NCBI RefSeq assembly: GCF_021028975.2 | Contig: NC_059426.1 | Span: 70,308,001-70,372,000 of the forward strand | DNA from: Sphaerodactylus townsendi | Lineage: Eukaryota | Length of the DNA stretch: 64,000 bases | Reading direction: 5' to 3' | Part shown: positions 14,528-62,161 of the stretch, in pieces | Layout: every line of letters begins with the position of its first letter | How positions within the stretch are numbered: position 1 is the stretch's first letter | The notes under the pieces: model-generated | What the model was told of the DNA's origin: nothing | The model's database searches: none | What the model saw: only the letters and a program-made list of their open reading frames with translations | Made by a program: the position numbers and the translations under genes

Positions 14528-15475
14528 ATGGCAGATGCCAATCACACCAAGACCACCGTCAAGGAGTTCATTCTCTTGGGGATCACTGATCGTCCAGACC
14601 TACAGAACCCTCTCTTTGTTGTGTTCCTTCTGAACTATATTATCACTGTGATGGGAAATTTGGGGATAATTCTCTTAATCAGGATGGATCCTCATCTCCA
14701 CACTCCCATGTACTTCTTCCTCTGCCACCTGGCTTTTGTTGACCTTTGCTATTCCTCTGTCATTGCTCCTAAAATGCTGACAAACTTTTTAGCAGCTAAA
14801 AAAACAATTTCATACAATGCATGTGCAGCACAGCTGGGCTGCTTCCTAACATTTATGATCACAGAATGTTTCCTCCTGGCAGTGATGGCATACGACCGCT
14901 ATGTAGCCATCTGTAACCCACTGCTTTATCAAACCATCATGTCTCAGAGAGTGTGTATCCAATTGGTAGCTGTCCCTTATATATACAGCTTTGGCGTGGC
15001 TCTGTTCCACACCATAGTGACATTCCGTTTGTCCTTCTGCTCTGCAAACGTGATCAATCATTTCTACTGTGATGACCTCCCACTGTTAGCCCTTTCTTGC
15101 TCTGACACCAGCACCAAACAGATCCTGATCTATGTGTTTGCTGGGTTTGACATGATATGCTCACTTCTCATTGTATTAATCTCTTATTCTTTTATTCTTT
15201 CTAATATCCTCAGAATACGTTCTGCTCAAAGTCGACAAAAAGCTTTTTCTACCTGTTCCTCCCATCTGACAGCTGTTACCATCTTCTATGGAACACTGAT
15301 GTTTATGTATTTGCAACCTAGTACTAACCATTCTCTAGCAACAGATAAAATTGCTTCTGTTTTCTACACTCTGGTGATTCCCATGTTGAATCCTTTGATC
15401 TACAGTCTGAGAAATAAGGAAGTTAAGGCTGCTCTGAAGAGATCAATCGAAAGATTTGTGCTTGTTCTCAGATGA
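14528..15475 (+). CDS. OR8U3: Olfactory receptor, class II, OR8U3 (formerly OR5R1)-like, 315 aa
   Basis: Intact 7TM ORF with [35 protein letters not shown] and [12 protein letters not shown]. Tracts [39 protein letters not shown] and FAGFDMI match my recollection of mammalian OR5R1/OR8U3; the symbol is tentative. Confidence 0.95.
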
Positions 15476-15949
15476 AGATATAGAAGCTCATTGTTTCCAA
15501 TGAATATTATGCAGAGCAATTAAAAGTAATATGGAGGGCTCAGTCTCCAGCATCTCCAGTTAGATGATACTACGGGGTACAAAATACATTTACACAAAAT
15601 CGTGGATAGCCATTACCAACCTTAGGAGATTACTCACTTTGCTGGACCAATGGTAAAATCAACATTTATTAACTCTTTATTACAAACTGATGGTATGTAC
15701 ATACATATATGATGTGTTCAATGCAATATTTGAACAGGGCAAGTATAAGGAATAAATTCTCTTTAGTGTGTTCCCACTGAATTCCTTTGATATCTTCACC
15801 ATCAGTTCACACCCTATATTACTGATTTCTAACCCCTAATATTCTTAATATTCTTTATTACAGGTTGGTAATTTCTTACAACTTCATGACTGTGACTCCA
15901 CACTACCTGGAATAAGAATAAGAATGAAATGGGTCCATATCACACAGCC

Positions 15950-16535
15950 TAAATAAGATGTCCTGGGGACACTTAAAAAAGGCATCCTGGGGAGGCACTC
16001 CACACTGCTCTTTTCCCAAGACATCCTTAGGATGCCTTATTTCAGGTCAATGTGTCTTTTTTGAGGAACACTTCAACGTGCCTCTTTTCTCCCTAAGTCA
16101 CCTGCAAGATATCTCCTGCCCGACTGTATGGAATGCAGAGCTCAGGAGGCATCTTATTTTTCCTGCCCGACCATTTTGCTCTCTGGTCAGTTTCATTCTC
16201 AGCTTGTGCCCAGCATTTTGTGTGCTGGTGAAGGGATTCTCCCTGTCACCATTTGCTGAAGGTTCCCCCCAGGACTTTTGCTCTGCAGGCACCAATCCTG
16301 GACACCTTTTCAATCCAAAAAGTACATAGTTGTACTCACCTGGTCCTGTCGGTTCTGACAATATATATAGTTTTTCCCTCTTTTTATTTTGGAGGAGTAT
16401 CAATGCTTCTCAATGGGCAGTAGACCACTGTCCCAATACTTTTCAATGGGAGTCCTCCAAGTGGCTAAGATTCTCTTATGTGTGTCTGTGTATCTTTGAA
16501 GATAACTCCTCCAAAATAAAAAAAATAGGAAAACT
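15950..16535 (+). repeat. Old interspersed repeat, second copy at 52285-52735
   Basis: Shared in order: AAATAAGATGTCCTGGGGA..CTTAAAAAA, CCCCAGGA..TTGCTCTGCAGGCA and TCTTTGAAGATA.CTC.TC.AAA. Confidence 0.65.
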
Positions 16536-18038
16536 ATATATGGTCAGAATTGGCAGGACCATGTTGAGTTGGACACAAAACTGGAAGTGTCAAAGAATGT
16601 GGAAGCAGTTTAGAAACAAAGGCCCCTTCCACACATGCAGAATAATGCACTTTCAATCCACTTTCAATGGTGAGTGGGATTTGAATGACTGAAACATTGC
16701 AGCATTATCATAAATAGTGGGAAGAACCAGCCCTTTCCTGAGAAGGTAGCCATGTAAGAACGCATCTCCCAGTTCCAAACAAGAGGCCATTTCATCTCTA
16801 AATACACAGCTCATCTCTGCTGCTTTCTAACAGCCTTAGAAGAATCATCTTGATCAACTGCATTCATCTAAATCTTTAGAATGGACCTTCTTGCCCTTCA
16901 CAACAGACATCATTCAAGCCTCCACCCTTCTAAATGCAGATTTTTTTCTCCAAGGGGGAGTGTCTCCAAAGGGGAAGTTATTTGATAAAATTACAGCTGT
17001 AAAACAGTGACAATGTAAATGAGGTGGTCATTAAAGGTATTAGAGGAAGAAACATTTGGTTAGTACAACATTGGTCAGGCAAGCACATTAACAAATCTAT
17101 TGTCTTCACCAGAGTGTACGGTCCAGGGCTGGAAATGGGAACTCTCTCCATGTCAAGGTTGGGTGGAGGACCATTTACATTTGTTCAATGAAATAAAAAA
17201 TCACTCCAGAGAACAAGGAGCTGCTAGGGGATTGCACTGCTTCATCTCAGAAGGGGCACCCAAGCAAGAAAAAAGAATAACCAGGATGTGGTCATGGGCT
17301 TGAGAATAAGCAGATCCAAGGAGCTTTGTTCTTTCTTTCCTTCCAGGAGAACTCAGTTTTAGCTATGCGACTGAAGTTTAGTGCTGTGACTGAAGATTTA
17401 AAAAGCATCATTGTCTCTGTTGCTGGCAAGACAACCATGGCTGGGTAACTTGAAGGATACCTGAAAAGATCAACTTAGCCCCAGCTTTATATAAATGCCA
17501 CTCAACTCTTTGTTCTTGCATTGCCAGACCAATCTCATTCCTCTTCTCATTTCAATTCTTTTCTCCTCTACACCCCTTTCTTTGTGTGTCTTTTTTCACT
17601 CAGCAAGGTTTATGGCAGGGCCTACATATTGTTTTATCTACAGCACCTGCCAGTGTGTGTAGCACAAAACGTTGTAATAGGTGTGAGCCTGGACAAAACA
17701 CAATTTTGATCTGGGAAGCAGGAGGAAAAAAAGTATATTTGTATCTAACCCTTCTGCCGCCCCCCGCCCCCCCTGGCCACTTTTCTTTACATCATGTTGG
17801 CTATCTGCCAGCATTTCTACCTTTACATTATGCAAAATCACAGTAACATGGAAAATTCAAACACAATAATATTTTTGACATATAGCAGTCTCATGAGGCT
17901 GACCCACACACAAAAAATGGCAAGATATTGGTTTCAGGCCCTAACCCGCATTTACAGGCAAAGTGTGTGTGGTACTGAGACTCAACAGAAAAGAAAGGCA
18001 ATCCTTTCTAATGAAGATGAGGTAGCAATTAACTATAC

Positions 18039-18239
18039 TCTGACTAAAAGAAAAACCCAAAATTGTACCTTCATTCGCCAAACACTGGACTGTCTTTGTT
18101 TTAGAATGCTGTGTTTGGGTCCTAGTCCCAACCTGGTTCTGTTAGGTAGGCACTAGGACCAAAATGGAGCATTCTAAAACAAAGAAAGTCCAGCATGTGG
18201 CGAATGAAGTTACAAATTTGGGTTTTTCTTTTGGTCAGA
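18039..18239. repeat. Long imperfect inverted repeat, ~95-bp arms with a very short loop
   Basis: The arms give similar translations on opposite strands (LTKRKTQNCTFIRQTLDCLCFRML vs LTKRKTQICNFIRHMLDFLCFRML). Confidence 0.9.
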
Positions 18240-18963
18240 AAGAGTTTGTGCATAGTATAATTATATTCTGCTTTGAGCAAAAGTCCTTTTCTATACTGAT
18301 TTAGACCTCCAAGAGCTCCAAGCACAAGCAAGATATGAGCTCCTAGCACAAGCAGTACTGTGTATTGTGACAATAATCAGGATATTGAAATCTACAAATA
18401 CAGCAAACTGACTGACTATATTTGTGACCATTGTTAAGAACAACCCCCGCCCCCAATCTGCAGGCCATTTTTAGGAACTGTGATCAAGAAACAGTTCCAA
18501 TTCTAATTAGCAACTTCTTCAATGGCCTAGTGAGATTTTATTAAAATAAGTGTGTGACTGCATCTACATAGTACCCAAGAGAAGGGAAACAAATGAGTAA
18601 TTGTGTACAGAGGACATTGTTAGCATTATTTTGGGACTCTCTGTTTACAAAGTCCTATTATTTTTAATTGCAACAAATGTAACTCTGCAACATACTTTAT
18701 AATTGTTCCCCAAGCAGTCTGTTTACTACTGTTTAACTAGTTAATCCCAAAAGTGTTTTTCTCCCCAAATGGAATGATGATGTAAAATGCACTTTAATCG
18801 TATATATGTATGTGAAGTTTGGATCAGTGCCAGATTTTAACTCATGTCAGGAATTGTTTGTAGGAACCATGTGTATACAGAGGTAAAACAATTCTTAGTA
18901 TCAGCATTTTGATCAATTGCCAGCCTCAGCCATTTGCTTGCTATCTTTTAATGTTGCCATTTA

Positions 18964-19064
18964 ACACATACTCATGTCATGGAGTCAAGGATAATGTTAT
19001 ATATAATATTAGAAGGAATATATATGTATAACATTATCCTTGACTCCATGCCATGAGTATGTGT
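18964..19064. repeat. Inverted repeat, 38-bp arms with one mismatch, followed by (TG)n
   Basis: ACACATACTCATGTCATGGAGTCAAGGATAATGTTATA ... TATAACATTATCCTTGACTCCATGCCATGAGTATGTGT. Confidence 0.92.
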
Positions 19065-19152
19065 GTGTGTGTGTGTGTTTGTGCGTGTGCACACATACAT
19101 ATATATACAAACAAATTATATATGGGCATCTTCCTACAAACAAATATATATG

Positions 19153-19284
19153 TGGGCATCTGTGCTTTTCTTAGTGGTAACAAATTCATTTTGGTTCATG
19201 GCAGCAGTTGCTGTCCAGTCAGCACCCACCCATAACCATGAACCAAAATGAATTTGTTACCACTATGAAAAGCACAGATGCCCA
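19153..19284. repeat. Inverted repeat, 49-bp arms with one mismatch and a 34-nt loop
   Basis: TGGGCATCTGTGCTTTTCTTAGTGGTAACAAATTCATTTTGGTTCATGG ... CCATGAACCAAAATGAATTTGTTACCACTATGAAAAGCACAGATGCCCA. Confidence 0.92.
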
Positions 19285-24356: not shown

Positions 24357-25295
24357 ATGGCTGAGGGTAATCACAGTACAGTTACCAAGTTCATTTTTGT
24401 AGGCTTCACAGATGATCCACAACTAGAGCTTGCCCTCTTTGTGGTGTTCTTGTTCATCTACCTAGCAAATGTAGTAGGGAACATGGGTATGATCCTCCTG
24501 ATAATCTTGGATGGACAGCTCCACACTCCCATGTACATCTTTATCTGCCACCTCTCTATAATGGACCTGGGTTACTCCACTGCCATAGCTCCTCGTATGT
24601 TGGCTGATTTCCTACACCATCCCAAGATCATCTCTTTCTCCAGCTGTGTTCTTCAATTTGTGTTTTTTGTGGCCTTTGTGGATGCTGAATGTTACACATT
24701 AGCTGCCATGGCATATGATCGTTATGCGGCGATATGCCGTCCTCTCCATTATACCACAGTCATGTCAAAGAAAGTATGTGTGGTACTGGGGATTTTTTGT
24801 TACTTCGCAGGTCTGATGAGTATGGTAGCCCATACTAGCCTCACCTTCACTTTAGAATTCTGTGGCCCCAATATCATCAACCATTTCTTCTGTGAAATCC
24901 CTCCACTTATAGCATTATCTTGCTCTGACACTTCTATCAGTGAAATTCTCCTCTTTTTCTTCTGTGGAGTCAATGAGATCAGCACCATCACTGTCATTCT
25001 GATCTCCTACTTCTTCATCTTTGCTGCCATTTTGAGGATCCATTCTGCTGAGGGTCGACGCAAAGCCTTCTCCACCTGTGCTTCCCATCTGACTGGAGTC
25101 ATACTTTTTTATGGGACAGTCATGTTTATGTATCTGAGACCACCTTCCAGCTATTCATTAGACCAGGACAAATGGGCCTCTGTGTTCTACACACTAGTGA
25201 ATCCTGCACTGAACCCCCTAATCTACAGTCTGAGAAACAAAGACGTGAAGGAGGCTTTTCGAAGAGTCATCAGCAAAACTGTGTTTTCAAAATAA
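24357..25295 (+). CDS. Olfactory receptor, OR5AR1-like paralogue, 312 aa
   Basis: True start taken as MAEGNHST at 24357; the ORF-track start is an upstream GTG. All OR motifs are intact ([38 protein letters not shown]). Closely similar to the gene at 30351. Confidence 0.95.
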
Positions 25296-30350: not shown

Positions 30351-31289
30351 ATGGATAAGGCCAATCATACCACAGTAACAGAATTCATTTTCTTGGGCTT
30401 CACAGACAATCCACAATTGGAAGTTGCCCTCTTTGTGGTGTTTTTCTTCATCTACCTGGCAGATGTGTTGGGAAATGTGGGCATGATTCTCCTGATCATC
30501 ATTGATGAGCAACTCCACACACCCATGTATTTTTTCCTTTGCCACCTCTCATTAGTGGATCTGGGGTACTCTACCGCCATTGCCCCACGTATGCTGGCAG
30601 ACTTCCTGAATCAACACAAAGTCATATCCTTCTCCAGCTGTGCCACACAATTTGCATTTTTTGTGGGCTTTGTGGATGCTGAATGCTATGTCTTAGCTGC
30701 CATGGCATATGATCGCTATGTGGCCATCTGTCGTCCTCTCCATTATACCACAGTCATGTCAAAGCAAATCTGTCTGGTACTGGTGATTGGGTCCTATGTA
30801 ATGGGTCTTATAAGCTTGGTATCCCATACCAGCTTGACTTTCAGCTTAAATTTCTGTGACTCCAACATCATCAACCACTTCTTCTGTGAGATCCCTCCAC
30901 TCCTAGCATTGTCTTGCTCTGACACCTATGTGAGTGAGATCCTCCTCTTCAGCCTCTGTGGCTTCATTGAGTTCAGCACCATCCTCATTATCCTGATCTC
31001 TTACCTCTTCATTTTTGTTGCCATCTTGAGGATTCGTTCTGCTGAGGGTAGACACAAAGCCTTCTCCACCTGTGCTTCCCATCTCACAGGAGTCACTTTG
31101 TTTTATGGGACAGTTATGTTTATGTACTTGAGGCCAACATCCAGCTACTCATTAGACCAGGACAAATGGGCCTCTGTGTTCTACACCGTTGTGATCCCAA
31201 TGCTGAATCCCCTAATCTACAGCCTGAGGAACAAAGATGTGAAGGAAGCTTTCAAAAGAGTTATCAGCAAGAAAGTTTTTTCTCAGTAA
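30351..31289 (+). CDS. OR5AR1: Olfactory receptor OR5AR1 orthologue candidate (mouse Olfr1019/Or5ar1-like), 312 aa
   Basis: Intact ORF. Long tracts [82 protein letters not shown] and [23 protein letters not shown] match mammalian OR5AR1 as I recall it. Confidence 0.95.
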
Positions 31290-34440: not shown

Positions 34441-34449
34441 CCATCCAAT

Positions 34450-38499: not shown

Positions 38500-39477
38500 A
38501 TGCAAATGGAAATGGTTCACAGAAATGAAACATTTGTGACTGAGTTCATATTTCTAGGCCTCTCCAGTCAACCGAGGATCCAGACAATTCTTTTTTTGGT
38601 ATTTCTGGCTTTTTATTTGTTCACAGTGTTTGGAAATGTCATCATCATCTCTGTGGTTGGAGTTGACTCTCGACTTCATATACCCATGTACTTTTTCCTA
38701 ATCAATTTGTCAATCTTAGACATTTCTTACATCTCAACCAATGTCCCACAGATGCTCACGAACCTTCTAACCAGAAGAAAAATGATCTCATTTTGGGGCT
38801 GTGCAACCCAGATGTATTTTTCTCTGGCTTTTGGAATGACAGAGTGCTTTCTGCTTGGAGTCATGGCTTATGACCGATATGTGGCTATCTGTAAGCCTTT
38901 GCATTACATAGTCATCATGAACTGGAAGATATGCATGCAGTTGGCTGCTTTCTGCTGGAGCAGCAGTTTAGTGAGCTCAATGATAATAAACATTTTCACA
39001 TTACGTTTACCTTTCTGTGGTCCAAACATCTTGAACCATTACTTCTGTGAGGTGCCAGCTGTGCTGACCCTGGTTTGCACTGACACTTCATTTACTGAGA
39101 TGGTTGTCTTTGTTTTCAGCATAATCATAGTCTTCTTCCCCTTCCTGCTAATCATTGTCTCTTATGCCTACATTTTCAGAGCTGTCCTTCAGGTACAAAC
39201 TGCAAAAGGAAGGACTAAAACATTCTCTACCTGTGCATCCCATCTTACTGTAGTAGTCATATTTTATGGGACGTCAATTTTTACATATATGCGACCAACC
39301 TTAAAATCCTCACAAGACAGGGACAAAGTGATTGCAGTATTTTATACTATTATAATGCCCATGCTCAACCCCCTGATATATAGTCTGAGAAACAAGGATG
39401 TGAAGGATGGCCTAAGAAGATCATTCACATTATTAAGAGGTTCTGCTGTAAGCAAAGGAGTTCATGTGAGTTTGTGA
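38500..39477 (+). CDS. Olfactory receptor, family 2/13-type (positional candidate for OR2AH1), 325 aa
   Basis: Intact ORF with [50 protein letters not shown] and [12 protein letters not shown]. Splice-acceptor-like TTCACAG at 38492. Three alternative N-terminal Met codons. Confidence 0.95.
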   Translation: MQMEMVHRNETFVTEFIFLGLSSQPRIQTILFLVFLAFYLFTVFGNVIIISVVGVDSRLHIPMYFFLINLSILDISYISTNVPQMLTNLLTRRKMISFWGCATQMYFSLAFGMTECFLLGVMAYDRYVAICKPLHYIVIMNWKICMQLAAFCWSSSLVSSMIINIFTLRLPFCGPNILNHYFCEVPAVLTLVCTDTSFTEMVVFVFSIIIVFFPFLLIIVSYAYIFRAVLQVQTAKGRTKTFSTCASHLTVVVIFYGTSIFTYMRPTLKSSQDRDKVIAVFYTIIMPMLNPLIYSLRNKDVKDGLRRSFTLLRGSAVSKGVHVSL

Positions 39478-44646: not shown

Positions 44647-45582
44647 TCAAAAAACTATTTTTGTCTTCATAATCTTTTTGAAAGCATCTTTTACTTCCTT
44701 GTTCCTTACACTGTAGATCAAAGGATTCATCATTGGTATTATCAGTGTGTAGAAGATAGAGGCCCATTTGTCTTTATCCAGGGCATATGCAGATGAAGGA
44801 CGCAAGTACATGAATATAATTGTCCCATAGAAGAAAGTGATTACAGTCAAGTGGGAGGCACATGTAGAGAAGGCTTTGCACCTGCCCTCAGCAGAGTTTA
44901 TCTTTAGGATGGTGGAGATGATGGAGATGTATGACATTAGGACAACAGTGAGAGAACCGAACTCAATGAAACTGGTACAAGCAAATAGCAACATCTCATT
45001 GATATGGATGTCTGAACAGGAGAGGGCAAAGAGAGGGGGCACATCACAGAAGAAATGATTGATAACATTGGAACTACAGTAATCTAAAGTAAAGAGAGAT
45101 ATAAACTGTACTACTGTATCACCAACACTAGCTGTGTATGAACCTATAATGAGATAGATATAAACTTTTCTGGACATAATAATGGAATATTGTAGTGGAC
45201 GACAGATGGCTACATAACGGTCATAAGCCATAGCTGCCAACAGAAAACATTCGGTGTCCCCAAAGATACAAAAAACAACTAACTGTGCAAAGCAGCCAGC
45301 AAAGGAAATTACTTTTCTTTCCGTCAGCAAGTCAACAAGCATCTTGGGACCAATGGCCGAAGAGTAACACAGGTCTAGGAATGACAACTGACTGAGAAAA
45401 ATGTACATGGGACTCTGCAGATGAGGACAGAGTACAATCAGGAAAATCATGCCCATGTTGCCTGCTAGGTTGATCAGATAGATGATGAGGAAAACTACAA
45501 AGAGAACAACTTGGATCTGTGGATCTTCAACAATTCCCAGGAGAACAAATTCTGTAACTTCAGTGTGGTTCTCTGCAGGCAT
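44647..45582 (-). CDS. Olfactory receptor, family 5, divergent OR5AR-related, 311 aa
   Basis: Intact ORF with [45 protein letters not shown] and [12 protein letters not shown]. Shares FIEF and DKWAS with the OR5AR genes. Confidence 0.95.
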
Positions 45583-47745
45583 TTGTTTTATTTTTGTGAT
45601 TTGCAGATGACCACAGAGGTACTTACAGCTGAGAAGTTATGAAACACTGGACTATCTTCCGTGTTTCTGCTTGCTGTAATGCCTACAGCAGAAAGAATGA
45701 GAGAGTCAATACGATGCATAGTTCACTTAACCTTCAAGCACTGCTCCTTTAGTGCAGTCATCACTCTAAGTACATCTAAGTACAGTATCTGCCAAAAAAG
45801 AAATTCAACTTGATTACGTAAAGTAACCATAGTCTGAAATATTACACGATGTCATGTTTAACACAGACCGAAGTTCATTTTTTTCAGGTGGCAATTTAGA
45901 GCAGAGTGCGTGCATGAACATCTTCCACTTTTCCATTCCAAATAATCCACTCTGAGCATGTTTCCATTCTCCTCACACTGTTCCAAATTTTTCTGAGACT
46001 TTGTGGGTGAAATTGAATTATCACCAGGTATTAAAAGCAAATCCTTCTGTAATACACACTGTATTTTTCTGTTGTTTAAATTGAAAAGAGTCTTACTGTG
46101 ATGGGCTGTTTCATTGCAACAGGGAGACATGGTATAGGTAGGGTGAGTCTCAGAGCCCGCTGGTCTTGGGGTGGGGTTCCAACATAACAAAGAAGTATGT
46201 TCCCAAACTTTTGTTAGCAAGTCCAGTTATACAGCACTGGTTCCCCAGGATGCAGGCAGAGTTTGTATTACTAGATAGGAATGGAATGAGCCAGGAAGGA
46301 GTGGAGCCTCTAGAGGCAGAGGGGTGCAGAATGTGTGGAAAGCAGAAAAGGGAAGCCAGGCTGCTTGGCTGAGAGCTTGAAATTTGATTGAAGATTCTTA
46401 ACACTTTGTTGTGATAGGGAACTTGTAAGGGAGGGAGACTTTTGTTCTGAATTGTGAATTTTAGAATTGATTGTTTCAGGGCTGTGAGACCCTCAACTTT
46501 GAAGCCAGTGCACAGAGTGTTCAGCTGGAGACTTACTGGGTCACCAAAAAGTGGAAATGGATTTTAGGGATGGCAAGCTGTGATAGAGGGAAAAGTTAAC
46601 TGCTAAACTTTAAAAGATTATGGTTCTCTTGTGTTACTAAGTTCTGTGTTGCTACATAATACATTAAGAGATAAGTAACAAGAAAAAAGTTTTATTGCAA
46701 GATGCACTCTAAGTTCTGTCTCAGAAAACCCGCAAACTGAAGTTACATTTGCAGATGTTTAAAATAGAAACCTTTTCTAGCTGCTACTCTTAGCAAGCAG
46801 AGGACTATTTCTTCCCCGTGTACTTTCTTATCATGGGTCAATTCTGCACAGCAAATGTATAACGGGTTGCAATCATTATAAAGAAACCTGTTTTCGTTTT
46901 TCCTGTTCACATGCATGCCATGCAGGTTGCAATTGGAGCCCATAAAAACAATCTGGATTACTTTCTTGCCTTTGCATAGAGAAGCTACTCTTTTAAAAAA
47001 AAATTCCAGGAACACATGCATAGCTACACAGGCACGTAGAAATAAACCCCCACAGCCGTGCCAATTGTCCCATGATATGGCTGCACCTGCACAGCTGCAC
47101 ACATGCAACACACACAATTTTTTTTAAAAAAGGGACCTCCCTATAATGGCAGGGCAATGGCAGGCGGATTTTCCCTGACCATGGATGGGAGGGAAATAAA
47201 GCACCTCCTGTCTGGCCATTTGCTCACGAGCGCCTCTAAGCCAGGATTTTGCAAAAGGATAGCTGGTTTAGGGATTTTTGAAAATAACAGGTTGAGGGAA
47301 GTAAAACGAGATAGACTAATTTTGGGGATGGGACCTGTTCGAAGTCCCCCCCCCCAACAGTTTATACAGTGTCCTGCACTTGTTGTATTTGCCATGGTTA
47401 CATATAAGATTCAGCATACAGGATTGCACAGTCTCAGCCTTACCTGCTGTCAGTTTCATTCATGTTGTGCACTGATCCGAGAGGCTGAAAGCATTTGTAT
47501 TCTTCTTTAGAGAAACTGGGTGGTGTCTACTGAGCAGCAAAATGTCTTCCCTTGGTGGCACCTCCCATGACACTTAGCCTAGACAAATTGCACAGTGATT
47601 ATTATTGCTATCAAAATAGTTGTATAGAAGAGTTATGATGTTGTGGGAACCTCTGGGACATTATCCATTTTCCATTGCCCCTCCATGGCTTCCGTGATAG
47701 TTTCAGCACCCCCCATGGATTGCACTGTTAATAATCTGAATTAAT

Positions 47746-48200
47746 ATGGTCAATAGCAACCATGTCACTGTGACTGAATTCATATTCCTGAGACTCATCA
47801 ACCAATCAAAACACTTCTTTGTGGTATTCCTGTTTTTTTGTATGTATTCACAATATTTTAAACCTTATTATCATGGTTATAACTTATTATTGGCTCCATA
47901 CATCCTTGTGCTTTTTCCTCATCAATTTTTCTTTTCTAGACATCTTTTTATGCTAGCCCTGATGTATGTCAGATATTGATGAACCTTGTGATCAGAAAAG
48001 CAACTATAGTCTTTTCTGGGCTGTGTAACCCAGATGTATTTTTACTTGATGTCTGGCATGACGTGTGTGTATATATATATCTATATATCCATATGTAATA
48101 GCTTATGATTGATACATAGAAATCTGTCATCTACTGAATTATTGGTCATCATGACCTAGAACTTACAGGTCTAGCTGGTGGCCTTTACCTGGAAAGTTGC
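47746..48200 (+). pseudogene. Decayed, 3'-truncated OR pseudogene paralogous to the gene at 38500
   Basis: Begins [15 protein letters not shown]. Frameshifted DNA matches follow: CTTTTTCCT.ATCAATTT, GGGCTGTG(T)AACCCAGATGTATTTT, GCTTATGA..GATA and GTCATCATGA, collinear with 38512-38960. Confidence 0.8.
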
Positions 48201-48579
48201 TTTTCTGTGGTTGTAATAGCTTGGGCCATTGTCTCTGTAAAATGTCTGCAGTGGGACAATTCACTGAAAATCTTGTGGAGACAAAGTATGAATTGCTTTG
48301 TACTGTCAACTCTATTGCATAGTGGAGCAACAATAAATATTCAGTTTCCTTTAATTTAATGTTTTATTATTTAACACTGAAACTTCAGACCAGATACTTT
48401 GACTTGAAAAGAATACAACACTAACTGCAATAATAACAATACAAATAAGTAGTTTCTTGTCTATTAAATCCAGCAATCCTGTAGTTTATCAGCAGGAAAA
48501 TGAAACTGTGTTCATGAGCCACCTTGAGCCACCATGTTTGGTGGGAAAGGTGGACTATTTCAATAAATGGAGAGACTGA

Positions 48580-49009: not shown

Positions 49010-50307
49010 CACTGGCGTAATGCCCATTGGGCAAGGTGAGCAGCTGCCCAGGGCATCACCTTGTGGGGGGCATCAAAATGCTGGGTTCGTTTTTGGGTAT
49101 TTTTAGTGGTTTTCCATTTTTGGCCAGCAGGGGGTGCAGTTTTTAGGCTAGCAGCACCAAAATTTCAGCGTATCATCAGGAGACTGTCCTTATGCTACCC
49201 CCCAAGATTGGTGAGGTTTGGTTCAGGGAATCCAAAGTTATGGACTCCCAAAGGGGGTGCCCCTATCCCCCATTGTTTCCAATGGGAGCTAATAGGAGAT
49301 GGGGGCTACAGTTTTGAAGGTCCATAACTTTGGGCCCCCTGAACCAAACTGCACCAAACTTGTGGGGAATCATTAGGGCAGTCTCCTGATGAGACCCTGA
49401 AAGTTTTGAGACTGTGCCTTCAAAAATGTGCCCCCCAGCCTGCAACCCCCATTGATAGCAATGCAGAACAAAGATTCTTGGGCAAATTTCTGGGATGTTC
49501 CTGCAGGGGGCGCATTTTTGGATGTATTGGCACCAAAATTTCAGGGTATCATCTGGAGACTGTCATGATGGCACCCCCAAGGTTTGGTGCAGTTTGGTTT
49601 AGGGGGTCCAAAGTTATGGACCCTCAAAGGGGGTACCCCATCTCCTTAGCAAAGAATGTGGGATGGGGTATCCCTTTTGAGGGTCCATAACTGGACTAAA
49701 CCAAACTGCACCAAACCTTGGGGAACATAAGGACAGTTTCCAGATTATACCCTGAAATTTTGGTGCCGATACATCAAAATGCGCCCCCTGCAGATCCCAG
49801 AAATTTGCCCAATAATCTTTGTTCTGCATTGAGTTTTCTGTGTTGCTGTCCATGGGGGTTGCAGGCTGGGGGGGGGAACATTTCTGAAGGCATAGTCTCA
49901 AAACTTTCAGGGTCTCATCAGGAGACTGCCCTGATAATACTCCCCAGGTTTGGTGCAGTTTGGTTCAGGGGGCCCAAAGTTATGGACCCTCAAAACTGTA
50001 GCCCCCATCTCCTATTAGCTCCCATTGGAAACAATGGGGGATGGGGCACCCCCTTTGGGAGTCCATAACTTTGGACTCCTTGAACCAAATCTCACCAGAC
50101 TTGGGGAGTAGCATAAGGACAGTCTCCTGATGATATGCTGAAATTTTGGTGCTGATATGTCTAAAAACTTCACCCCCTGTAGGCACCAATGTCCTGGTGC
50201 AAAAAAATATTTGGTCGTGGTGGAGTGGCCGCCCATGGGGGGGGGGCATACAACTCAGGTTTTGCCCAGGGCTACAGTTTGCCCAGGGCTGCCTTGTTAC
50301 GCCCCTG
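49010..50307 (-). mobile_element. Non-autonomous hAT foldback element, full length (cleaner copy of 4893-6255)
   Basis: TIRs CACTGGCGTAA / TTACGCCCCTG and a perfect TSD CTCCCTTC (49002-49009, 50308-50315). Confidence 0.92.
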
Positions 50308-52974: not shown

Positions 52975-53907
52975 ATGGAAGGAAGCAATCATACTACAGT
53001 GACTGAGTTCATTCTTCTAGGATTCACAGCTAATCCAAAACTGCAGCTGAGCCTGTTTGTGGCATTTCTAATAATATATGTGGTTACCTTAGTTGGAAAT
53101 GTTTCACTAATAGTTCTAATCTTCAGCAGTTCTCCCCTCCATACACCCATGTATTTCTTCATTGGGAATCTGTCTTTTTTGGATATTTGGTACTCCTCTG
53201 TCTATACTCCAAAGATCCTGGTGAACTGTATTTCAGAGGACAAAAGCATTTCCTTTGGAGGTTGTGCTGCCCAGTTCTTCTTCTCTGCTGGTCTTGCATA
53301 TAGTGAGTGCTACCTCCTGGCAGCCATGGCTTATGATCGTTACATAGCAATAGCTACCCCACTGCTGTATGCTACTGCCATGTCCAGAAAGCTATGCTTA
53401 GGACTTGTGGCCCTCTCATATTTAGGTGGATTCATCAATGCCACAATTCTCACCAGTGAAACCTTCACACTGACCTTCTGTGATGGCAACATCATTGATG
53501 ACTTCTTCTGTGATGTGCCACCTCTGGTAAAGCTCTCCTGTGATGTGACTGAGAGTTACCAATCTGTGCTATACTTCCTTCTCACTTATAACATCATTGC
53601 CCCCTCAGTTTTCATTCTTGCCACTTATTCTTTCATCCTAGCAGCCATTTTGCGGATCCGTTCCACTGAAGGCAGGCGCAAAGCCTTTTCAACGTGTGCT
53701 TCCCACCTGACAGCTGTCACTTTGTACTATGGTTCCATTCTCTTCATCTACTCACGCCCCAGCTCCAACTATACTTTGGAAAGGGACAAATGGACTTCCA
53801 TGTTCTACACAGTGGTTTTCCCCATGCTGAATCCCATGATTTACAGTTTAAGGAACAAGGATGTCAAAAATGCTTTGAAGAAGATGATCAGAAGGACAGG
53901 TTTCTAA
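52975..53907 (+). CDS. OR9G1: Olfactory receptor, OR9G1-like, 310 aa (alternative in-frame ATG at 52957)
   Basis: [40 protein letters not shown] and NIIDDFFCD match OR9G1 as I recall it; standard OR motifs are intact. The symbol denotes a probable co-orthologue. Confidence 0.93.
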
Positions 53908-55934: not shown

Positions 55935-56180
55935 ATGTAAAGTGCTGTCAAGTCACAGTTTAAGAACATAAGAACATAAGAACATAAGTTTGGCATAAGA
56001 ACATAAGAACATAAGTTTGACTTATCATGATCCCAGCAAGGGACTTTCAAGGCAAGCGATTAAGCAGAAGTAGGTTGTCAAGTGCATTCCTCTACAAAGA
56101 CTTGCTTGGTGATCTCCCATTCAAGTTCCAACACTGCTCAACTTCTAAGATCTGCTGAAATCAGGTTATACTTTAGCGTT
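55935..56180 (-). mobile_element. 5S-derived SINE interrupted by a (TAAGAACA)n insert
   Basis: Same family as 36990-37200. The octamer repeats at 55961-56015 are the reverse complement of a CR1-type (TTCTTATG)n tail. Confidence 0.6.
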
Positions 56181-56883
56181 CAACTCCCTCCTCCAAGTCT
56201 TAACAGACTGTAAAATGTACAACAGAATTGTTCAAGGTTGCATTTTTATAAAGGGGATGTAGTTTTAATATCTACGAATGTTTCAGGCAGTTTTCATTGT
56301 TTTGTGAATTGAATATATTACACTGTTTTTATTCCATAGTACTTGAATTTTGTATTCTATCTTTATTGTGCTGTTCATTTATTGTGTTGTTCATATATAT
56401 TTTACTATTTTCTGCATCATGCTCCAATTTAGTAATCTTGTATTGTATGTATTTTACCATTTTAGCATGTTGTTCTTTAACTTTGTAAAACAGTTTAAAT
56501 GCATTGTTTGCTGCATGCATAACATCGTTCCTACTTCATTGATTTTAATCTTGTAATCAGCCTTGAATTCCTTCCAGAAAAAACAGACTATAAATGGGGT
56601 AAATAAATAAATAATGTGTATGGTTTTACACTGTAGTGTACTTTGCCCATTGATCAACCTGACCCTGCCTGGAAGGTAATAAACAGTTACAATATGGAAG
56701 CATTCCAAACATACTGCAATGAGAGAATTGGTATTCAGCTAGAAAAAATATTTCCTGGAGTATGAGTAAATTTCAGATTAGATTGATTTAGCATAAAGTG
56801 ATGTTGATCTTTTTTGGATATAATGTTAACAAAAACAACAAAGGTTGTTATTTGATTAATAATGGCTCTACAATCATCTAGGC

Positions 56884-57420
56884 CAGGGGTCGGGAACCTT
56901 TTCCCCGCAAAGAGCCATTTGGCTCACCCACCCCCCACTCGCTGGCACGCCCCCCCCTCCGCTCCCCCGCCCACTTGCTCGCTCGCGCCCCCCCTCCGCC
57001 CGCTCACACACACACACCCGCCTGCAGGGCAGGCGTAGATAGGCCCGGCGGCTCGGCCTTGCCGGCTGCCGGGCGAGTGATGCGCCCGCCCTGCTCCTTA
57101 CAGGGCGGGTGAAGAGGTGCCCGGCGGCTCGGCCGGGCCGGCCACCGGGGGAACGATGCTCCCGCCCTGCTCCTCGCAGGGCAGGAGAAGAGGTGCCCGG
57201 CGGCTCGGCCGGGCCGGCCGCCGGGGGAACAATGCTCCCGCCCTGCGAGGGGAGAAGAGGTGCCCGGCGGCTCGGCCGGGCCGGCCGCCGGGGAAACGAT
57301 GCTCCCGCCCTGCTCCTCGCAGGGCGGGAGAAGAGGGGCCCCGCGGCTCGGCTGATGGAGCCGCAGAACAGCGGCGGAAGAGCCGCATGCGGCTCGCGAG
57401 CCGCGGGTTCCCGACCCCTG
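56884..57420. mobile_element. Young GC-rich hAT (Charlie-like) MITE with an internal ~60-73-bp tandem repeat
   Basis: TIRs CAGGGGTCGGGAACC / GGTTCCCGACCCCTG, perfect TSD ATCTAGGC, about 4 internal repeat units, and CpGs intact. Confidence 0.92.
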
Positions 57421-57439
57421 ATCTAGGCCGTAATTGCGA

Positions 57440-58062
57440 CAGGGGGCAAGGCACATTGTGAGCTCTGGTGGGTGAGCATGCATGCCCTGGGCCGGCTGGG
57501 CAGCTGAGCCAGCCCCAGCCCTGATTGCATTATATGCACATGCTGGAAGGGTGGAGGACGCTCCCTATGTATTAGGCAGCATGCGATTGCTCCAGCCTCT
57601 TTGACACCTGGAGCAAAGTTGACCCACCCACCCTCCCTATTTTAGGGTTGGGTTGGGCTGCTCTGTTCGTCAGTTTAGGCAGAGCAGCACATCCTTGTGG
57701 GGAGACCGGGCTCGTGCCTGGACCTCCTCGCGTTTGGGGGCCTCCTTAAGAGGTTTGGGGTGGGGCAGGCTCATGGGCATGCCACAGAGGCTTCTGCAAA
57801 TTTGAGCCTGACACCCCAGCAGTTAGGGGACCACAAAGGGCGGACGCACCAGTGGCCCTGACCTTTCTGTCCTCCCCAAGATGGATTGGGTGGTCCCGGG
57901 ATCAGCCAGGGGTGCTGACCAGCCGGTGAACGGATGTGCTCCTCTTGCATGCCCAGCTTCCACCTTAAATGATGTAAATATAATAAAAGGGCTGTGGCCC
58001 AATTTCATTCCAAGAACTTGTCCTGTGGTTATTCACCAGACAGTATCTGCACATCTGGACGC
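57440..58062 (+). mobile_element. Terminal-repeat segment of a Ngaro/DIRS-like element
   Basis: The end AATAAAAGGGCTGTGGCCCAATTTCATTCC..TGTCCTGTGGTTATTCACCAGA..CTGCACATCTGG is similar to the reverse complement of 41760-41830. Confidence 0.5.
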
Positions 58063-59094
58063 AATATTTTCATTGATGTTCTGTGAGGAGACACCTGCAT
58101 GCAAAAAAAGAAAACTTATGCCAAAACAATGAATCTACATCTCTACATTTCAAAACTCTACTCCATTGAGAGAACAGGTGTTCCTCTGAGAGATGGAGTA
58201 GCTTGACTACAATGTATCTCGGGGAGTTGACAATGACCTTATCAAAAGTACTGGAAAAATCCAAATGCTTTAATATTGTATATTAGCTTAATGTGGCATT
58301 TTCTTTCCATGCAAGTAGCCAACACAAGCAGATGTAGAGTGGGAAAAGTGGTAGTTTAAGAATCAGATCTAGTTGAGCAATTCTGATACTCCAGCTAGTT
58401 TGTTTATACTTTCCTTGTGGTTGCCTATTTCTATTCCAGCGCTACTAAATAATACTTAAATTATGAACACAGAGAAATCTCCACTACAGAGCTGTGGGAA
58501 ATATGTTAAAAAAATCTATTCCCTCAATGAGAAAGCTTATGCATGAATCTAGTTTTAAACCTGTTTACCTGTAGAGCAGCTTTTGATAGCTGTACTAAGA
58601 AAACGGAACCGTGAAAGACACTACTGGGACGAAATCCTTAAGAGACCTCAGAATGAATGATCTGCATAAATACCCACCAGCATTTTCTCAACAACTGCTG
58701 ATACGATGTGATATCATGTGAGTAAATAGCTATTTCTTGCATGTAGTTAAAAAAGAGATACAATGAGATAGGGTTTTTTTGCTGTTGTTGTTCTGAAGTT
58801 GTATAATTTTAACGTGAAGAGATTTCATTAATATAATATGGTATAATGACTACTGGTGACAACCCATTCTTAAAACTAGTAATTTTTCCAAGCAGTATCC
58901 CAGAAAAGATCCTGCAGGTACTTTTCTTTAAGATAGCCAGCAAGAAACCTCCTTCCAGTTCTCCTTTCACAGACACTAGCATATTCACTGTTATTCAAAG
59001 CGAGCAGAATCAGTCAACAGACTAAAGCGCTATCTCTCAGGGGGATGCTATCTATGTCAGGGGGATGTTATCTAGTTGATAACATCCCCCTTGG

Positions 59095-60180
59095 TGGACA
59101 TTATCAATCTGTTCCTGAACTCAGCAATTTTCCCAGGAAGGTTGAAGGTGGCAGTGCTATGACTGATCTTGAAAAAAAAACCATCCCTGGATCCTTGTAA
59201 TCTGTCTAATTAATACCCAGTATTGAATCTTTCATTCCTGGGCAAGGTAGTTGTCACTGCCCATTCCTGGGCAAGGTAGCTATCACTGAAGCAGAGCAGC
59301 TCTATGTTTTTTTAGAGGATACCTTAGCCATAGATCCATCCAAGCTTGCTTCCTCTGAAGCCATGGGATGGAGACCATGTTGTTTGCCCTCACAGACAAT
59401 CTCTGTAGGCAACTAGATTGGGACAGGTTGACAGTGCTATTATTACTCAGTATTGCAGCAGTGTTTGATACAGTTGGCCATTTGACCCACCCACCTTCGG
59501 GGATGGGGCGGTATAAAAATCTAATAAAATAAATAAAAATAAATAAATTCTGGGTTGCAAGGGACAGTTTTACAGTGGCTGCTCTCCTTTCTCCAGGATC
59601 AGGGACAGAGAGTCGTAACAGGGGAGAAAGTATCATGATGACACCCTCAGGGGGCAATCCTCTCCCCAATGCTATTTAATATCTATATGTGACCCCCCCT
59701 CACCATCAGTATACAGATGACAGCCAGCTGTACCTGTTGATGGAAAGCTTGCCAGGTGTCATCCCAGTTACACTGGCCAGGTGTTTGGAGGCAGTAGTGG
59801 GATGGTTGAAGCAGAGTTAGTTGAAACTTAATCCATCAAACATGGAGGTTCTGTGGCTGAGCCGTGGAGATTCAGAACTGGGGAACCAGCAGCTGAAACT
59901 GGATGGGGGGGGGGGGGAATTAACACCTACACCTACTGTCAAAAGTCCAGGGGTGACTCTGGATGCCTCCCTTTCTATGGAGACTCAGGTTACCAGTACA
60001 ACCAGAATGATATTTTTTCATCTTCAACAAAGTAAGCAGTTGACCACCAGGAGATACTGTTTTAATGTAATTTTTACTGAATAATAATTTTTGACTGAAT
60101 TAATCATTTTAAGTGTGAGCTGCCCTGAGCAACTCTTTGATGGGGATGTGGGGGTGGGTAATAAAAAATAAACAAAAACG
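59095..60180 (+). mobile_element. Degraded L2 LINE with a nested short L2-type tail at ~59487-59548
   Basis: KKPSLDP..LSN, VLLLLSIAAVFDTVGH, PQGAILSPMLFNIYM, QYTDDSQLY and LKLNPSNMEVL. Confidence 0.8.
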
Positions 60181-60514
60181 TAATTGCTGAAAATGGTAGG
60201 GATTCCAGGTGAAGAGAAACCTCCAGGATATATAAAAATTTACAGGCTGAGAAAAAATGCAACTAGAGGCTGGGAAAGGGAAGTGATCAACAAGACTGAA
60301 CAGTAGAAATCATACTTTATCGCTCCCCATAGTGTTAAAGTAGATCAAACACATGTGATATTCGCACAAATTAAACTGCTGACATGCTTTTTTCTTCTTA
60401 TAAAGTATTGACTAACAATTATCAGAATACAATCCCCATTATTCTGTATACAAAGAAAAACTTTTCTCTATGTTGCTCTGTTATTAAGATGAAAGAACTA
60501 GTATTTTATGTATA

Positions 60515-60517
<3 letters not shown>

Positions 60518-60592
<75 letters not shown>
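60518..60592 (+). repeat. (GAT)25 microsatellite forming the RTE element tail
   Basis: Perfect 75-nt trinucleotide run. Confidence 0.97.
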
Positions 60593-60593
<1 letters not shown>

Positions 60594-61114
60594 TTATCCA
60601 TTCAGTCATTCTCGACCCTTGGCAACCCAATATGCAAGCTCTTTCCACGTTTTTCGATTAAGTACTGCTTCCTTCAGCTGGTTGATGCTCATGCCTGTAT
60701 CAGCTTTTATGGTATCCAGCCATCGTATTCTTTGGCGTCCAGGTCTTTTCCTGCCATTGACAAGATTGAGCATCATAGATTTTTCTAGCAAATTTGATCG
60801 CATCACATGACCCAAGTATGTAAGTCTGAGCCTGGTTATTTTCCCTTCTAGTGAAGTATCTGGTTTTATGCGGCTCAAGACTTCTGCATTTGTCATCCTA
60901 GCTGTCCATGGTATGTGCAGTAGTTTTCGCCAACACCACAACTCAAAAGCGTCTATTCTTCTTCTGTTGGCTTTCTTTATAGTCCAGCTTTCACACCCAT
61001 AAATGGTTATGGGGAAGATGATGGCTTGGACTAGCCTGTGCTTGGTTTTGATGCTGATGTCTCTGCTTCTCCACATTTTATCCATGCTCAGCATTGCGCT
61101 ACGTCCTAATGCTA
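60518..61114 (-). mobile_element. 5'-truncated RTE-clade (BovB-like) LINE with a (CAT)25 tail
   Basis: Uninterrupted 162-aa ORF (TKHRLVQAIIFPITIYGCESWTIKKANRRRIDAFELWCWRKLL.IPWTAR..YLGHVMR..GRQRIRWLD). 13-bp TSD TTTATGTATATTT (60505-60517, 61115-61127). Confidence 0.92.
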
Positions 61115-61225
61115 TTTATGTATATTTAGGACACCTCAAAAAAACAGAATATCAAAAAATAATGAAACAACCATGCTTATCTCCTTTTTTTCCTCTAGTG
61201 ATCGATCGTATCCAGGCTAAGGCTG

Positions 61226-62161
61226 ATGGAAGAAACAAACCAAACCACACTGACAAAGTTTATCCTTCTAGGCTTTACAACAGACCCCAAATTGCAGTTG
61301 ATCCTCTTTGTGGCATTTCTAGTAATATATATTGTTAGCCTGGCTGGAAACCTCACACTCATTGCTCTAATCTGCAGTACCTCCCGTCTTCATACACCCA
61401 TGTATTTCTTCATTGGGAACCTATCTTTCTTGGACCTCTGGTATTCCTCTGTTTACACTCCAAAGATCCTGGTGAACTGTGTCTCAGATGACAAAAGCAT
61501 TTCCTTCAGAGGTTGTGCTGCCCAGTTCTTCTTCTCTGCAGGCCTTGCGTACAGTGAGTGCTACCTCCTGGCAGCAATGGCTTATGATCGATATGTGGCC
61601 ATTGCTACTCCCCTACGATATGCCACTGCCATGTCCAGAAAGCTATGTACAGGACTGGTGACCTTCTCATATCTAAGTGGTTTTATCAATGCCACAGTCA
61701 TCACCAGTGAAACTTTCACACTGAATTTTTGTGACAACAACATCATTGATGACTTCTTCTGTGATCTACCCCCACTGATAAAGCTCTCCTGTGCTGTCCC
61801 CAAAAGCTACCAGTCTGTGCTGTACTTTATTCTGGCCTCTAATGTTATTACACCTTCAGCACTCATCCTTGCCTCATATACCTTTATTCTGGCAGCCATT
61901 TTGAGGATCCGCTCCACTGAAGGGAAGCTGAAAGCCTTCTCTACATGTGCCTCCCATCTGACAGCTGTCACTTTGTACTACGGTTCAATCCTCTTCATCT
62001 ACTCACGCCCTAGCTCCAGTTATGCCTTGGAGAGGGATAAAGTAGTATCTGTTTTCTACACAGTAGTGATCCCTATGCTGAATCCCTTAATCTACAGCTT
62101 GAGGAACAAAGAAGTGAAGAATGCTCTGAAGAAACTAATAATGAAATGGATGGCAATCTAA
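61226..62161 (+). CDS. OR9G1: Olfactory receptor, OR9G1-like, 311 aa
   Basis: Intact ORF and paralogue of 52975, with [35 protein letters not shown] and LASNVI. Acceptor TTTTCCTCTAG at ~61198. The symbol denotes a probable co-orthologue. Confidence 0.93.

What the first reader, a model, noticed from the sequence alone, without database searches (positions are those of the whole stretch)
14528..62161. OR gene order appears to mirror the mammalian OR8U3-OR5AR1-OR2AH1-OR9G block
Seen: an OR8U3/5R1-like gene, OR5AR-like genes, a lone family 2/13-type gene and OR9G1-like genes, in that order. Recalled knowledge: human 11q12.1 has OR8U3(OR5R1)...OR5AR1, OR2AH1P, OR9G1, and mouse has Olfr1019, Olfr1018 and the Or9g genes. 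Inference: this is an amniote-ancestral OR micro-synteny block retained in a squamate. That is unexpected in a family dominated by lineage-specific birth and death. The mammalian OR5M expansion and OR5AP2 are not seen between the first two genes here.
Basis: partly seen in the sequence, partly recalled or inferred. Interest (0 to 1): 0.7.

Follow-up and report, generated by a model that had tools for sequence, protein, structure and literature searches.

The report
Ancient smell-gene order kept in gecko
A gecko carries relatives of four mammalian smell-receptor lineages in the same order as mouse and dog do, likely a passive leftover of the gene layout of the common ancestor of reptiles and mammals rather than a new kind of system.

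Summary
The order is real; several details need correcting. The window (gecko, G000:C2) holds seven intact olfactory receptor (OR) genes and two relics.

Trees and reciprocal genome searches place 24357 and 30351 with mammalian OR5AR1 (74% and 82%), 38500 with OR2AH1 (68%; next gecko gene 56%), and 52975 and 61226 with the OR9G1/9G19 lineage. Mouse and dog tables show the same order. An apelin receptor and a TNKS1BP1-type gene follow the cluster, as recalled for human 11q12.1. A post hoc shuffle gives P about 1e-4.

Corrections:
- 14528 is not a 1:1 OR8U3 orthologue; it is sister to all sampled mammalian OR8U/8J/8K genes (AU p 0.002; 0.046 against 8U9 alone).
- Strands differ from mammals for 8U3 and 2AH1.
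- An unmatched minus-strand gene and a 2AH1-like pseudogene interrupt the block.
- The likely 9G4 orthologue lies 2 Mb away.
- No 5M or 5AP2 orthologue was found, likely a loss.

Most likely cause: local birth-and-death that left old, slowly evolving genes in place. Conserved OR order is published for mammals; I found no reptile class II case in nine searches. Modest interest.

The parts
9932..10245 (+). Truncated duplicate of the 5' flank and first 16 codons of the 14528 gene, cut off by a repeat (relic)
   Evidence: 87% identical to 14270-14576 over 315 columns; tblastn 10197-10244, 15 of 16 residues
14528..15475 (+). Intact OR, 315 aa (P0001); sauropsid pro-orthologue of the mammalian OR8U/8J/8K group, most similar to OR8U3
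   Evidence: 72-77% to mammalian 8U3/1038; best gecko hit of a rodent 8U3, 74% against 56-58% for the next hits; mammalian 8U3+8U9+8J+8K form their own clade 96/99 and 1:1 orthology is rejected, AU p 0.002, p 0.046 without 8J/8K
24357..25295 (+). Intact OR, 312 aa (P0002); faster-evolving squamate duplicate of OR5AR1
   Evidence: 74% to bat 5AR1; nested in the squamate 5AR1 clade (99/95), sister to a Hemicordylus gene (100/100)
30351..31289 (+). Intact OR, 312 aa (P0003); orthologue of mammalian OR5AR1 (mouse Olfr1019)
   Evidence: 79-82% to top mammalian hits; reciprocal best hit 82%; amniote 5AR1 clade 100/99
38500..39477 (+). Intact OR, 325 aa (P0004); orthologue of OR2AH1 (mouse Olfr1018), the lone family-2-type gene among family 5/8/9 genes
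   Evidence: 67% to bovine OR2AH1; reciprocal best hit 68% against 56%; closest other gecko OR 50-52%; clade with mammal, turtle, alligator and kiwi genes 99/96
44647..45582 (-). Intact OR, 311 aa (P0005); divergent relative of the 5AR group with no mammalian orthologue among the references held
   Evidence: best hits about 60-61% among 549 stored proteins; sister to the two 5AR clades 97/93 on a long branch
47730..48253 (+). Decayed OR2AH1-like pseudogene (5' half, with stops and frameshifts)
   Evidence: 63% DNA identity to the 38500 gene, E 5e-36, against E 1e-13 for the next gecko OR; tblastn 30% with stops; a contig from a related organism also covers it, with 29 differences and 17 gaps
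52975..53907 (+). Intact OR, 310 aa (P0006); OR9G1/9G19-lineage gene
   Evidence: cluster-mates named 9G19-like and 1013-like; 73.5% to a partial colugo 1013-like protein and 61.7% to 9G4; clade 100/99
61226..62161 (+). Intact OR, 311 aa (P0007); tandem paralogue of 52975, same lineage
   Evidence: 81% to P0006; 73.8% to the colugo 1013-like fragment; clade 100/99

Best explanation
This is a stretch of a class II olfactory-receptor cluster whose gene order likely dates from the amniote ancestor and was likely kept passively, because ORs in a cluster are gained and lost by local tandem duplication and inversion and rarely move. SHOWN: the order 8U-type, 5AR1, 5AR1, 2AH1, unmatched gene, 2AH1-like relic, 9G1-type, 9G1-type; orthology of the 5AR1, 2AH1 and 9G1-type genes by trees, and of 5AR1 and 2AH1 also by reciprocal hits; the same lineage order in mouse, dog, cow and chimpanzee; non-OR flanking genes. 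INFERRED: the ancestor carried one gene per lineage in this order. Mammals then expanded the 8U gene into the 8U/8J/8K array and kept and expanded 5M and 5AP. Squamates duplicated 5AR1, and the gecko line duplicated 9G1 and 2AH1 (one copy died), lost 5M and 5AP2, and had 9G4 separated by about 2 Mb. Single-gene inversions in one lineage or the other account for the strand differences. 5AR1 and 2AH1 likely survive through purifying selection on the receptors themselves (82% and 68% identity to mammals), not on their order.
For: Clades with ultrafast bootstrap/SH-aLRT support: 5AR1 100/99, 2AH1 99/96, 9G1-type 100/99, amniote 8U clade 100/98. Reciprocal best hits in the gecko genome with clear gaps. 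Mammalian order. Flanks: apelin receptor at C2:70.49 Mb (E 4e-152 against 4e-51 for the next family), tankyrase-binding-domain gene at 70.515 Mb, LRR protein resembling LRRC26 at 70.457 Mb. Across the 664-kb stretch, 7 anchors have 1 discordant pair of 21 against dog, p 0.003. Alligator sinensis relatives of 8U3, 5AR1, 2AH1, the second 5AR clade and 5AS1 all list a longest contig of 1,074,985 bases (P0232, P0270, P0019, P0313, P0329, P0337), which points to one scaffold. Signs of local turnover with relaxed arrangement: two relics, two tandem pairs, changed strands, interruptions.
Against: Strands are not conserved: 5AR1 and its adjacent 2AH1 face each other in 6 of 6 mammals seen, and 8U3 opposes 5AR1 in 5 of 5, while all are co-directional in the gecko. 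8U3 and 5AR1 are 18 genes apart in mouse and 14 in dog, so that link is order only, not adjacency. The 9G1-type assignment rests on one partial mammalian sequence (190 aa). No complete human or mouse OR set was available; 5G, 5AL, 8U8, 8U10, 9G3, 5AP1 and 9C1 were not sampled. Genome searches scored only 82-127 of 628-727 candidates. Gene order in turtle, crocodilian and bird was not read. The human order and human flanking genes are recalled, not seen in a call.
Confidence: 0.82

Rival explanations
1. The order is actively maintained: a shared cluster enhancer or expression-zone control lies among 5AR1, 2AH1 and 9G, so rearrangements are selected against.
For: 5AR1 and 2AH1 are neighbours in 6 of 6 mammals seen and in the gecko. 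A family-2 gene has stayed among family 5/8/9 genes for the whole amniote span. That OR clusters carry intergenic enhancers is recalled knowledge.
Against: Strands flipped, genes were inserted and lost inside the block, and 9G4 left it, which fits relaxed arrangement. Conserved non-coding sequence was not tested because no mammalian DNA was available.
Confidence: 0.1
2. The match is a naming artefact: slowly evolving mammalian ORs such as 5AR1 and 8U3 attract best hits from many reptile ORs, so a generic family 5/8/9 cluster only looks collinear.
For: The effect exists. NCBI labels several unrelated gecko and reptile genes '5AR1-like', '1019-like' or '1020-like', and it explains the 8U3 label: 14528 is about equally close to opossum 8U9 (72%) and rodent 8U3 (74%).
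Against: For 5AR1, 2AH1 and 9G1-type the identity gaps are large (82 vs 56-57, 68 vs 43-50, 74 vs 45-54) and the gene trees broadly follow the species tree with strong support. An order this good is unlikely under shuffling.
Confidence: 0.05
3. The order is a misassembly or a coincidence in this one genome.
For: The cluster has two stretches of about 30 and 40 kb that read as perfect G15T repeats, likely unfilled gaps. Only one reptile's order was read.
Against: Neither stretch lies in the window, which has a single 134-base N run at 62586-62719. Orthologues in Alligator sinensis share one scaffold length. A misassembly would not be expected to reproduce the mammalian order.
Confidence: 0.03

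Closest known systems
Mammalian 'clusters in conservation' (CLICs) of OR genes, Aloni et al. 2006 (PMC1794568; abstract, search passages and section 10 read)
   Same: Syntenic orthologous ORs in conserved order, with lineage-specific tandem duplication, inversion, insertion and deletion.
   Different: That study joined only two chicken clusters (13 genes: a class I cluster beside beta-globin, and one OR10AC gene) to mammalian CLICs. Here a class II, family 5/8/9/2 block is traced gene by gene to a squamate.
Mouse chr2 85.6-87.5 Mb and dog chr18 39.0-40.2 Mb OR cluster (Olender et al. 2020, PMC7160942; supplement 1, parts 5 and 26 and search rows read), counterpart of human 11q12.1 (recalled)
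   Same: Order 8U3, 5AR1, 2AH1, 9G; 5AR1 beside 2AH1; 5AS1/5J and OR4 genes further out on the 8U side.
   Different: Mammals have 14 (dog) to 18 (mouse) 5AP/5M/8U genes between 8U3 and 5AR1, a large 8U/8J/8K array, opposite strands for 8U3 and 2AH1, and 9G4 inside the block. The gecko has one 8U-type gene, two 5AR1 copies, an unmatched gene and a 2AH1-like relic.
One-to-one OR orthologues between mammals and reptiles (bioRxiv 10.1101/2025.11.03.686341; passages and section 38 read)
   Same: A minority of ORs (29-49 genes between amphibious marine mammals and reptiles) persist as orthologues.
   Different: The word 'synteny' does not occur in its main text, nor do the names OR5AR, OR9G or OR8U; its supplements could not be seen.
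Mouse Olfr1019/Or5ar1, receptor for the fox odour TMT (PMC5504302; abstract and passages read)
   Same: The 30351 gene is its orthologue by tree and reciprocal hit, at 79-82% identity to the top mammalian OR5AR1/1019 hits.
   Different: The gecko ligand is untested, and human OR5AR1 was not a TMT hit in one screen (PMC12315966; passages read), so tuning need not be conserved.

Membership tests
Class II olfactory receptor genes | Single-exon ORF of about 310 aa with OR motifs and 7tm_4 relatives | tested here: met
   listed relatives carry PF13853. Motif patterns are recalled.
OR5AR1 orthologue (30351; 24357 as co-orthologue) | Reciprocal best hit and supported clade with mammalian OR5AR1 | tested here: met
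   (100/99)
OR2AH1 orthologue (38500) | Reciprocal best hit and supported clade with mammalian OR2AH1, excluding other gecko family 2/13-type genes | tested here: met
   (99/96); only one reference (bovine) is named 2AH1, the others are its clade-mates
OR9G subfamily (52975, 61226) | Clade with mammalian OR9G genes | tested here: met
   100/99 for all 9G, and 100/99 with the colugo 1013-like fragment
OR9G1 orthologue in the strict sense | Groups with OR9G1 rather than 9G3, 9G4, 9G8, 9G10 | tested here: inconclusive
   9G4 excluded: another gecko gene at C2:72.35 Mb is its best hit and sister, 94/89; no full-length 9G1, 9G3, 9G8 or 9G10 was held
OR8U3 one-to-one orthologue (14528) | Clade of sauropsid genes plus mammalian 8U3, excluding 8U9, 8J, 8K | tested here: not met
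   AU p 0.002; p 0.046 with only opossum 8U9 excluded; mammalian 8U3+8U9 clade 100/98
Conserved OR cluster (CLIC-type synteny) | Orthologues in the same order | tested here: met
Conserved OR cluster (CLIC-type synteny) | Same relative strand (a stricter criterion that I added) | tested here: not met
   8U3 and the 2AH1 next to 5AR1 oppose 5AR1 in mammals; all are + in the gecko
Conserved OR cluster (CLIC-type synteny) | Shared non-OR flanking genes | tested here: inconclusive
   Gecko flank identified as apelin receptor, tankyrase-binding-domain gene and LRRC26-like gene; their position beside the human cluster is recalled, and a paper search gave no source
Conserved OR cluster (CLIC-type synteny) | Whole-genome alignment chain to a mammal | not testable with these tools
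   No mammalian genome is held
Amniote-ancestral block | Same order in turtle, crocodilian, bird or tuatara | tested here: inconclusive
   Orthologues exist in these groups and share a scaffold length in Alligator sinensis; their order was not read
TMT/thiazoline receptor (Olfr1019 function) | Responds to TMT in a cell assay | not testable with these tools
   Needs heterologous expression

The most novel reading that the evidence does not exclude
The whole class II cluster that became human 11q11-q12.1 was already laid out gene by gene in the amniote ancestor, from OR4 through 5AS1/5J, one 8U founder, 5AR1, 2AH1 and 9G to the LRRC55-APLNR flank. The gecko keeps a compact version of about 41 genes that reads as a map of the founders; the mammalian OR8U/8J/8K array grew from a single founder; and the 82%-conserved OR5AR1 still detects thiazoline-type danger odours in lizards.
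Probability: 0.3. Interest if true: 0.62.

Novelty: new member of a known kind. Interest (0 to 1): 0.4.

Why it matters
It extends gene-level order of a class II OR cluster from mammals back to the amniote ancestor; the 2006 CLIC study could not link such clusters to chicken. It gives position-checked orthologues, which automatic names hide (OR2AH1 orthologues are filed as 2G3-, 2B8-, 10A7- or 2D2-like). It suggests that the mammalian OR8U/8J/8K array came from one ancestral gene. It also supplies a lizard orthologue of the mouse TMT receptor for a simple test of ligand conservation. It reveals no new mechanism.

Tried and rejected
ESM Atlas: generic OR clusters only, no use for subfamily. Representative search: gave a 9G4 and a 1013-like reference but no close relative of the 44647 gene. 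Chimeric NCBI models as adjacency evidence in other species: none joined 2AH1 to a neighbour outside this genome; one bat model joins a 5AS1-type to a 5J-type piece. The 75-row careful tree did not finish (quick tree used); smaller careful trees did. The AU test is invalid, because I had put an opossum 8U9 copy into the 8U3 group; one search is the corrected test and is only borderline (p 0.046). The half-protein 9G4 comparison at the end failed and is not used. One search was a wrong-frame translation. Expression: no RNA holder listed; three RNA runs of a related organism, tissue not given, had no reads in the bins lying wholly inside the 38500 and 44647 coding regions and only traces at 52975, which says nothing about olfactory expression. 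Literature: nine searches returned no title or abstract start describing this block in reptiles; most subscription papers and bioRxiv supplements are not covered. PMC4825420, PMC3342882, PMC4985648 and PMC11579656 were seen as search passages only; the first three contain no 'synteny' in the main text. Earlier scan findings: none. Considered and rejected: counting the 44647 gene as a 5AR1 orthologue (59% identity, outside that clade), and calling 52975/61226 9G4 orthologues.
Full report
WHAT IS THERE. The window is G000:C2:70308001-70372000. Its proteins cluster with gecko proteins. It holds seven intact single-exon OR genes: six on + (14528, 24357, 30351, 38500, 52975, 61226) and one on - (44647-45582). 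A search of the masked window with 105 reference ORs found two relics: a truncated copy of the start of the first gene at 9932-10245 (87% identical), and a decayed OR2AH1-like pseudogene at 47730-48253 (63% DNA identity to the 38500 gene, E 5e-36; next gecko OR 1e-13). The window sits in a cluster of 41 long OR ORFs in the 664 kb fetched, from 69.93 to 70.44 Mb; the left end of the cluster was not reached with certainty. To the right come an LRR gene with a single-stretch match to LRRC26 (LRRC55 by recall), an apelin receptor and a tankyrase-binding-domain gene. That these three flank the human 11q12.1 cluster is recalled; one paper search gave no source.

MAMMALIAN ORDER. Supplement 1 of PMC7160942 gives, for mouse chr2 and dog chr18: 5G, 9G, 2AH1, 5AR1, 5AP2, 5M genes, 8U10, 8U3, 5AL, 8U9, 8U8, 8J, 8K, and further out 5J1, 5AQ, 5AS1, 10AG, then 5D and OR4 in dog. 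Rows for rat, cow, chimpanzee and horse agree where seen. I saw no human table; chimpanzee is the proxy. Between 8U3 and 5AR1 lie 18 genes in mouse and 14 in dog.

ORTHOLOGY OF 5AR1 AND 2AH1. The 30351 protein is 79-82% identical to its top mammalian OR5AR1/1019 hits and is the best gecko hit of a bat 5AR1 (82%). It falls in an amniote clade at 100/99, with 24357 as a squamate duplicate. The 38500 protein has no gecko paralogue above about 52%. It is the best gecko hit of bovine OR2AH1 (68% against 56%) and groups with mammal, turtle, alligator and kiwi genes at 99/96. Most mammalian members are auto-named 2G3-, 2B8-, 10A7- or 2D3-like; several share a scaffold length with 5AR1, 5M or 9G4 proteins of the same species (Echinops, Chinchilla, Octodon, Dipodomys ordii, Pteropus medius).

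ORTHOLOGY OF 9G. 52975 and 61226 are in the OR9G clade (100/99) and group with a partial colugo 1013-like protein (74% over about 190 aa; 100/99), not with 9G4 (62%). The best gecko hit of mammalian 9G4 is a gene at C2:72.353 Mb, its sister at 94/89, with no other OR in the 110 kb fetched around it. In mouse and dog, 9G4 lies inside the block, so this lineage has been separated from it in one line or the other. This assignment rests on a single partial mammalian sequence for the 9G1 side.

THE 8U3 CORRECTION. 14528 is 72-77% identical to mammalian 8U3 and is its best gecko hit (74% against 56-58%). But it is 72% identical to opossum 8U9 as well. In a careful tree of 23 proteins, mammalian 8U3, 8U9, 8J and 8K form one clade (96/99) beside the sauropsid genes, and forcing sauropsid genes with 8U3 alone is rejected (AU p 0.002). 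Without the long 8J/8K branches the mammalian 8U3+8U9 clade is 100/98 and the corrected test is borderline (p 0.046). The gene is therefore best read as the pro-orthologue of the mammalian 8U/8J/8K array, with 8U3 its least-changed descendant. Position still fits, since 8U3 borders that array. Six Carettochelys and four Tiliqua 8U3-like proteins suggest separate expansions of the same founder.

WHAT DOES NOT MATCH. The 44647 gene lies between 2AH1 and 9G on the other strand. It is a long-branch relative of the 5AR group (97/93), at most 61% identical to any other of 549 stored proteins. The next gene after the window (70.379 Mb) belongs to a second 5AR clade found in lizards, turtle and alligator but in no mammal sampled. 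Strands differ: 5AR1 faces its adjacent 2AH1 in 6 of 6 mammals seen, and opposes 8U3 in 5 of 5; in the gecko all three are +. Dog has a second 2AH1 that runs in tandem with 9G1B, as in the gecko. Genome searches with a 5M-clade protein and a 5AP2 model found nothing above 61% and 60%, with no gap to the background (125 of 696 and 82 of 628 candidates scored). The 5M clade, which includes an echidna gene, branches outside the amniote-wide 8U clade, so the lineage likely predates the reptile-mammal split and was lost here. A gene at 70.098 Mb may be its sister, but support is weak (81/64), and two probable assembly gaps elsewhere in the cluster could hide genes.

CHANCE. With the two tandem pairs collapsed (39 units), four named lineages fall within five units and in order with P = 1.4e-4; the three firmest within four units, 0.004. 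Seven anchors across the cluster (OR4, 5J-type, 5AS1-type, 8U, 5AR1, 2AH1, 9G1-type) have 1 discordant pair of 21 against dog, p 0.003. These tests are post hoc, and the outer anchors rest on automatic names and a quick tree. Most of the other cluster genes had no mammalian reference to compare with.

OTHER REPTILES. Alligator sinensis relatives of 8U3, 5AR1, 2AH1, the second 5AR clade and 5AS1 all list a longest contig of 1,074,985 bases. I infer one shared scaffold. Their order was not read.

HOW IT MOST LIKELY WORKS. Birth-and-death in OR clusters acts by tandem duplication, loss and local inversion; PMC1794568 and PMC4825420 (passages) describe this. Such events change copy number and strand but leave surviving old genes in sequence. 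The window shows these events: two tandem pairs, two relics, flipped strands. Long survival of 5AR1 and 2AH1 is likely due to selection on the receptors. Order then persists without selection on order (confidence 0.82). Active maintenance by a shared enhancer (0.10) was not testable; a naming artefact (0.05) explains only the 8U3 label; misassembly (0.03) is unlikely.

COMPARISON AND NOVELTY. Conserved OR order is established in mammals; the 2006 study linked only a class I cluster and one OR10AC gene to chicken (PMC1794568, section 10). A 2025 preprint counts 29-49 one-to-one ORs between marine mammals and reptiles without addressing synteny in its main text. Nine searches returned no description of this block in reptiles; coverage omits most subscription papers and bioRxiv supplements. 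It is a new member of a known kind. The mouse orthologue of 30351 is the TMT receptor Olfr1019 (PMC5504302), though human OR5AR1 was not a TMT hit in one screen (PMC12315966).

VERDICT. Observation confirmed; interpretation partly supported. The order is real and likely ancestral, but it is not a mirror image and is what local birth-and-death predicts. Interest 0.4.

Noticed in passing
window 38500-39102 joined to about 52980-53907 (P0137): An NCBI model for this genome joins about the first 200 residues of the 2AH1 gene to the 9G gene at 52975. Dozens of 500-525-aa models in mammals, reptiles, birds and caecilians show the same join near residue 198: either a gene-prediction artefact or a shared cryptic splice site. 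The junction was looked at but not resolved; one search listed no such joint.
   Followed up: partly
G000:C2:69929900-69960000 and 70128300-70168300 (L043-L046, L003-L007): About 30 and 40 kb of perfect G15T repeat (625 T per 10,000 bases), likely unfilled assembly gaps rendered as letters; they could hide ORs of the cluster.
   Followed up: partly
G000:C2:72353331-72354281 (L066) and C6:41984390-41985304 (L078): A solitary intact OR9G4-like gene 2 Mb from the cluster, and a similar copy with a stop on another contig.
   Followed up: partly
G000:C2:70379456-70380400 (L021): Member of a second 5AR clade conserved in lizards, turtle and alligator, with no mammalian member among the hits.
   Followed up: partly
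G000:C2:70113251-70119162 (L001, L002): Two family-10-like ORs (one named 10R2-like) at about the position where mammals have OR10AG genes; no 10AG reference was held.
   Followed up: no
G000:C2:70069554-70086998 (L057, L058): Two genes forming a supported clade (99) with rodent '5V1-like' proteins; their mammalian position is unknown.
   Followed up: no
window 4893-6255, 10264-11037, 49010-50307: A repeat family with internal inverted copies (84% between the two long copies); one copy cuts off the 8U-type relic and another lies just behind the 2AH1-like relic.
   Followed up: no
window 60606-61094 (-): 162-aa ORF that resembles the C-terminal part of a LINE-type reverse transcriptase (recalled resemblance), just upstream of the last OR.
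   Followed up: no
window 62836-63099 and 57025-57352: Short tandem duplications (128 bases at 98%; a GC-rich array of about 76-base units).
   Followed up: no
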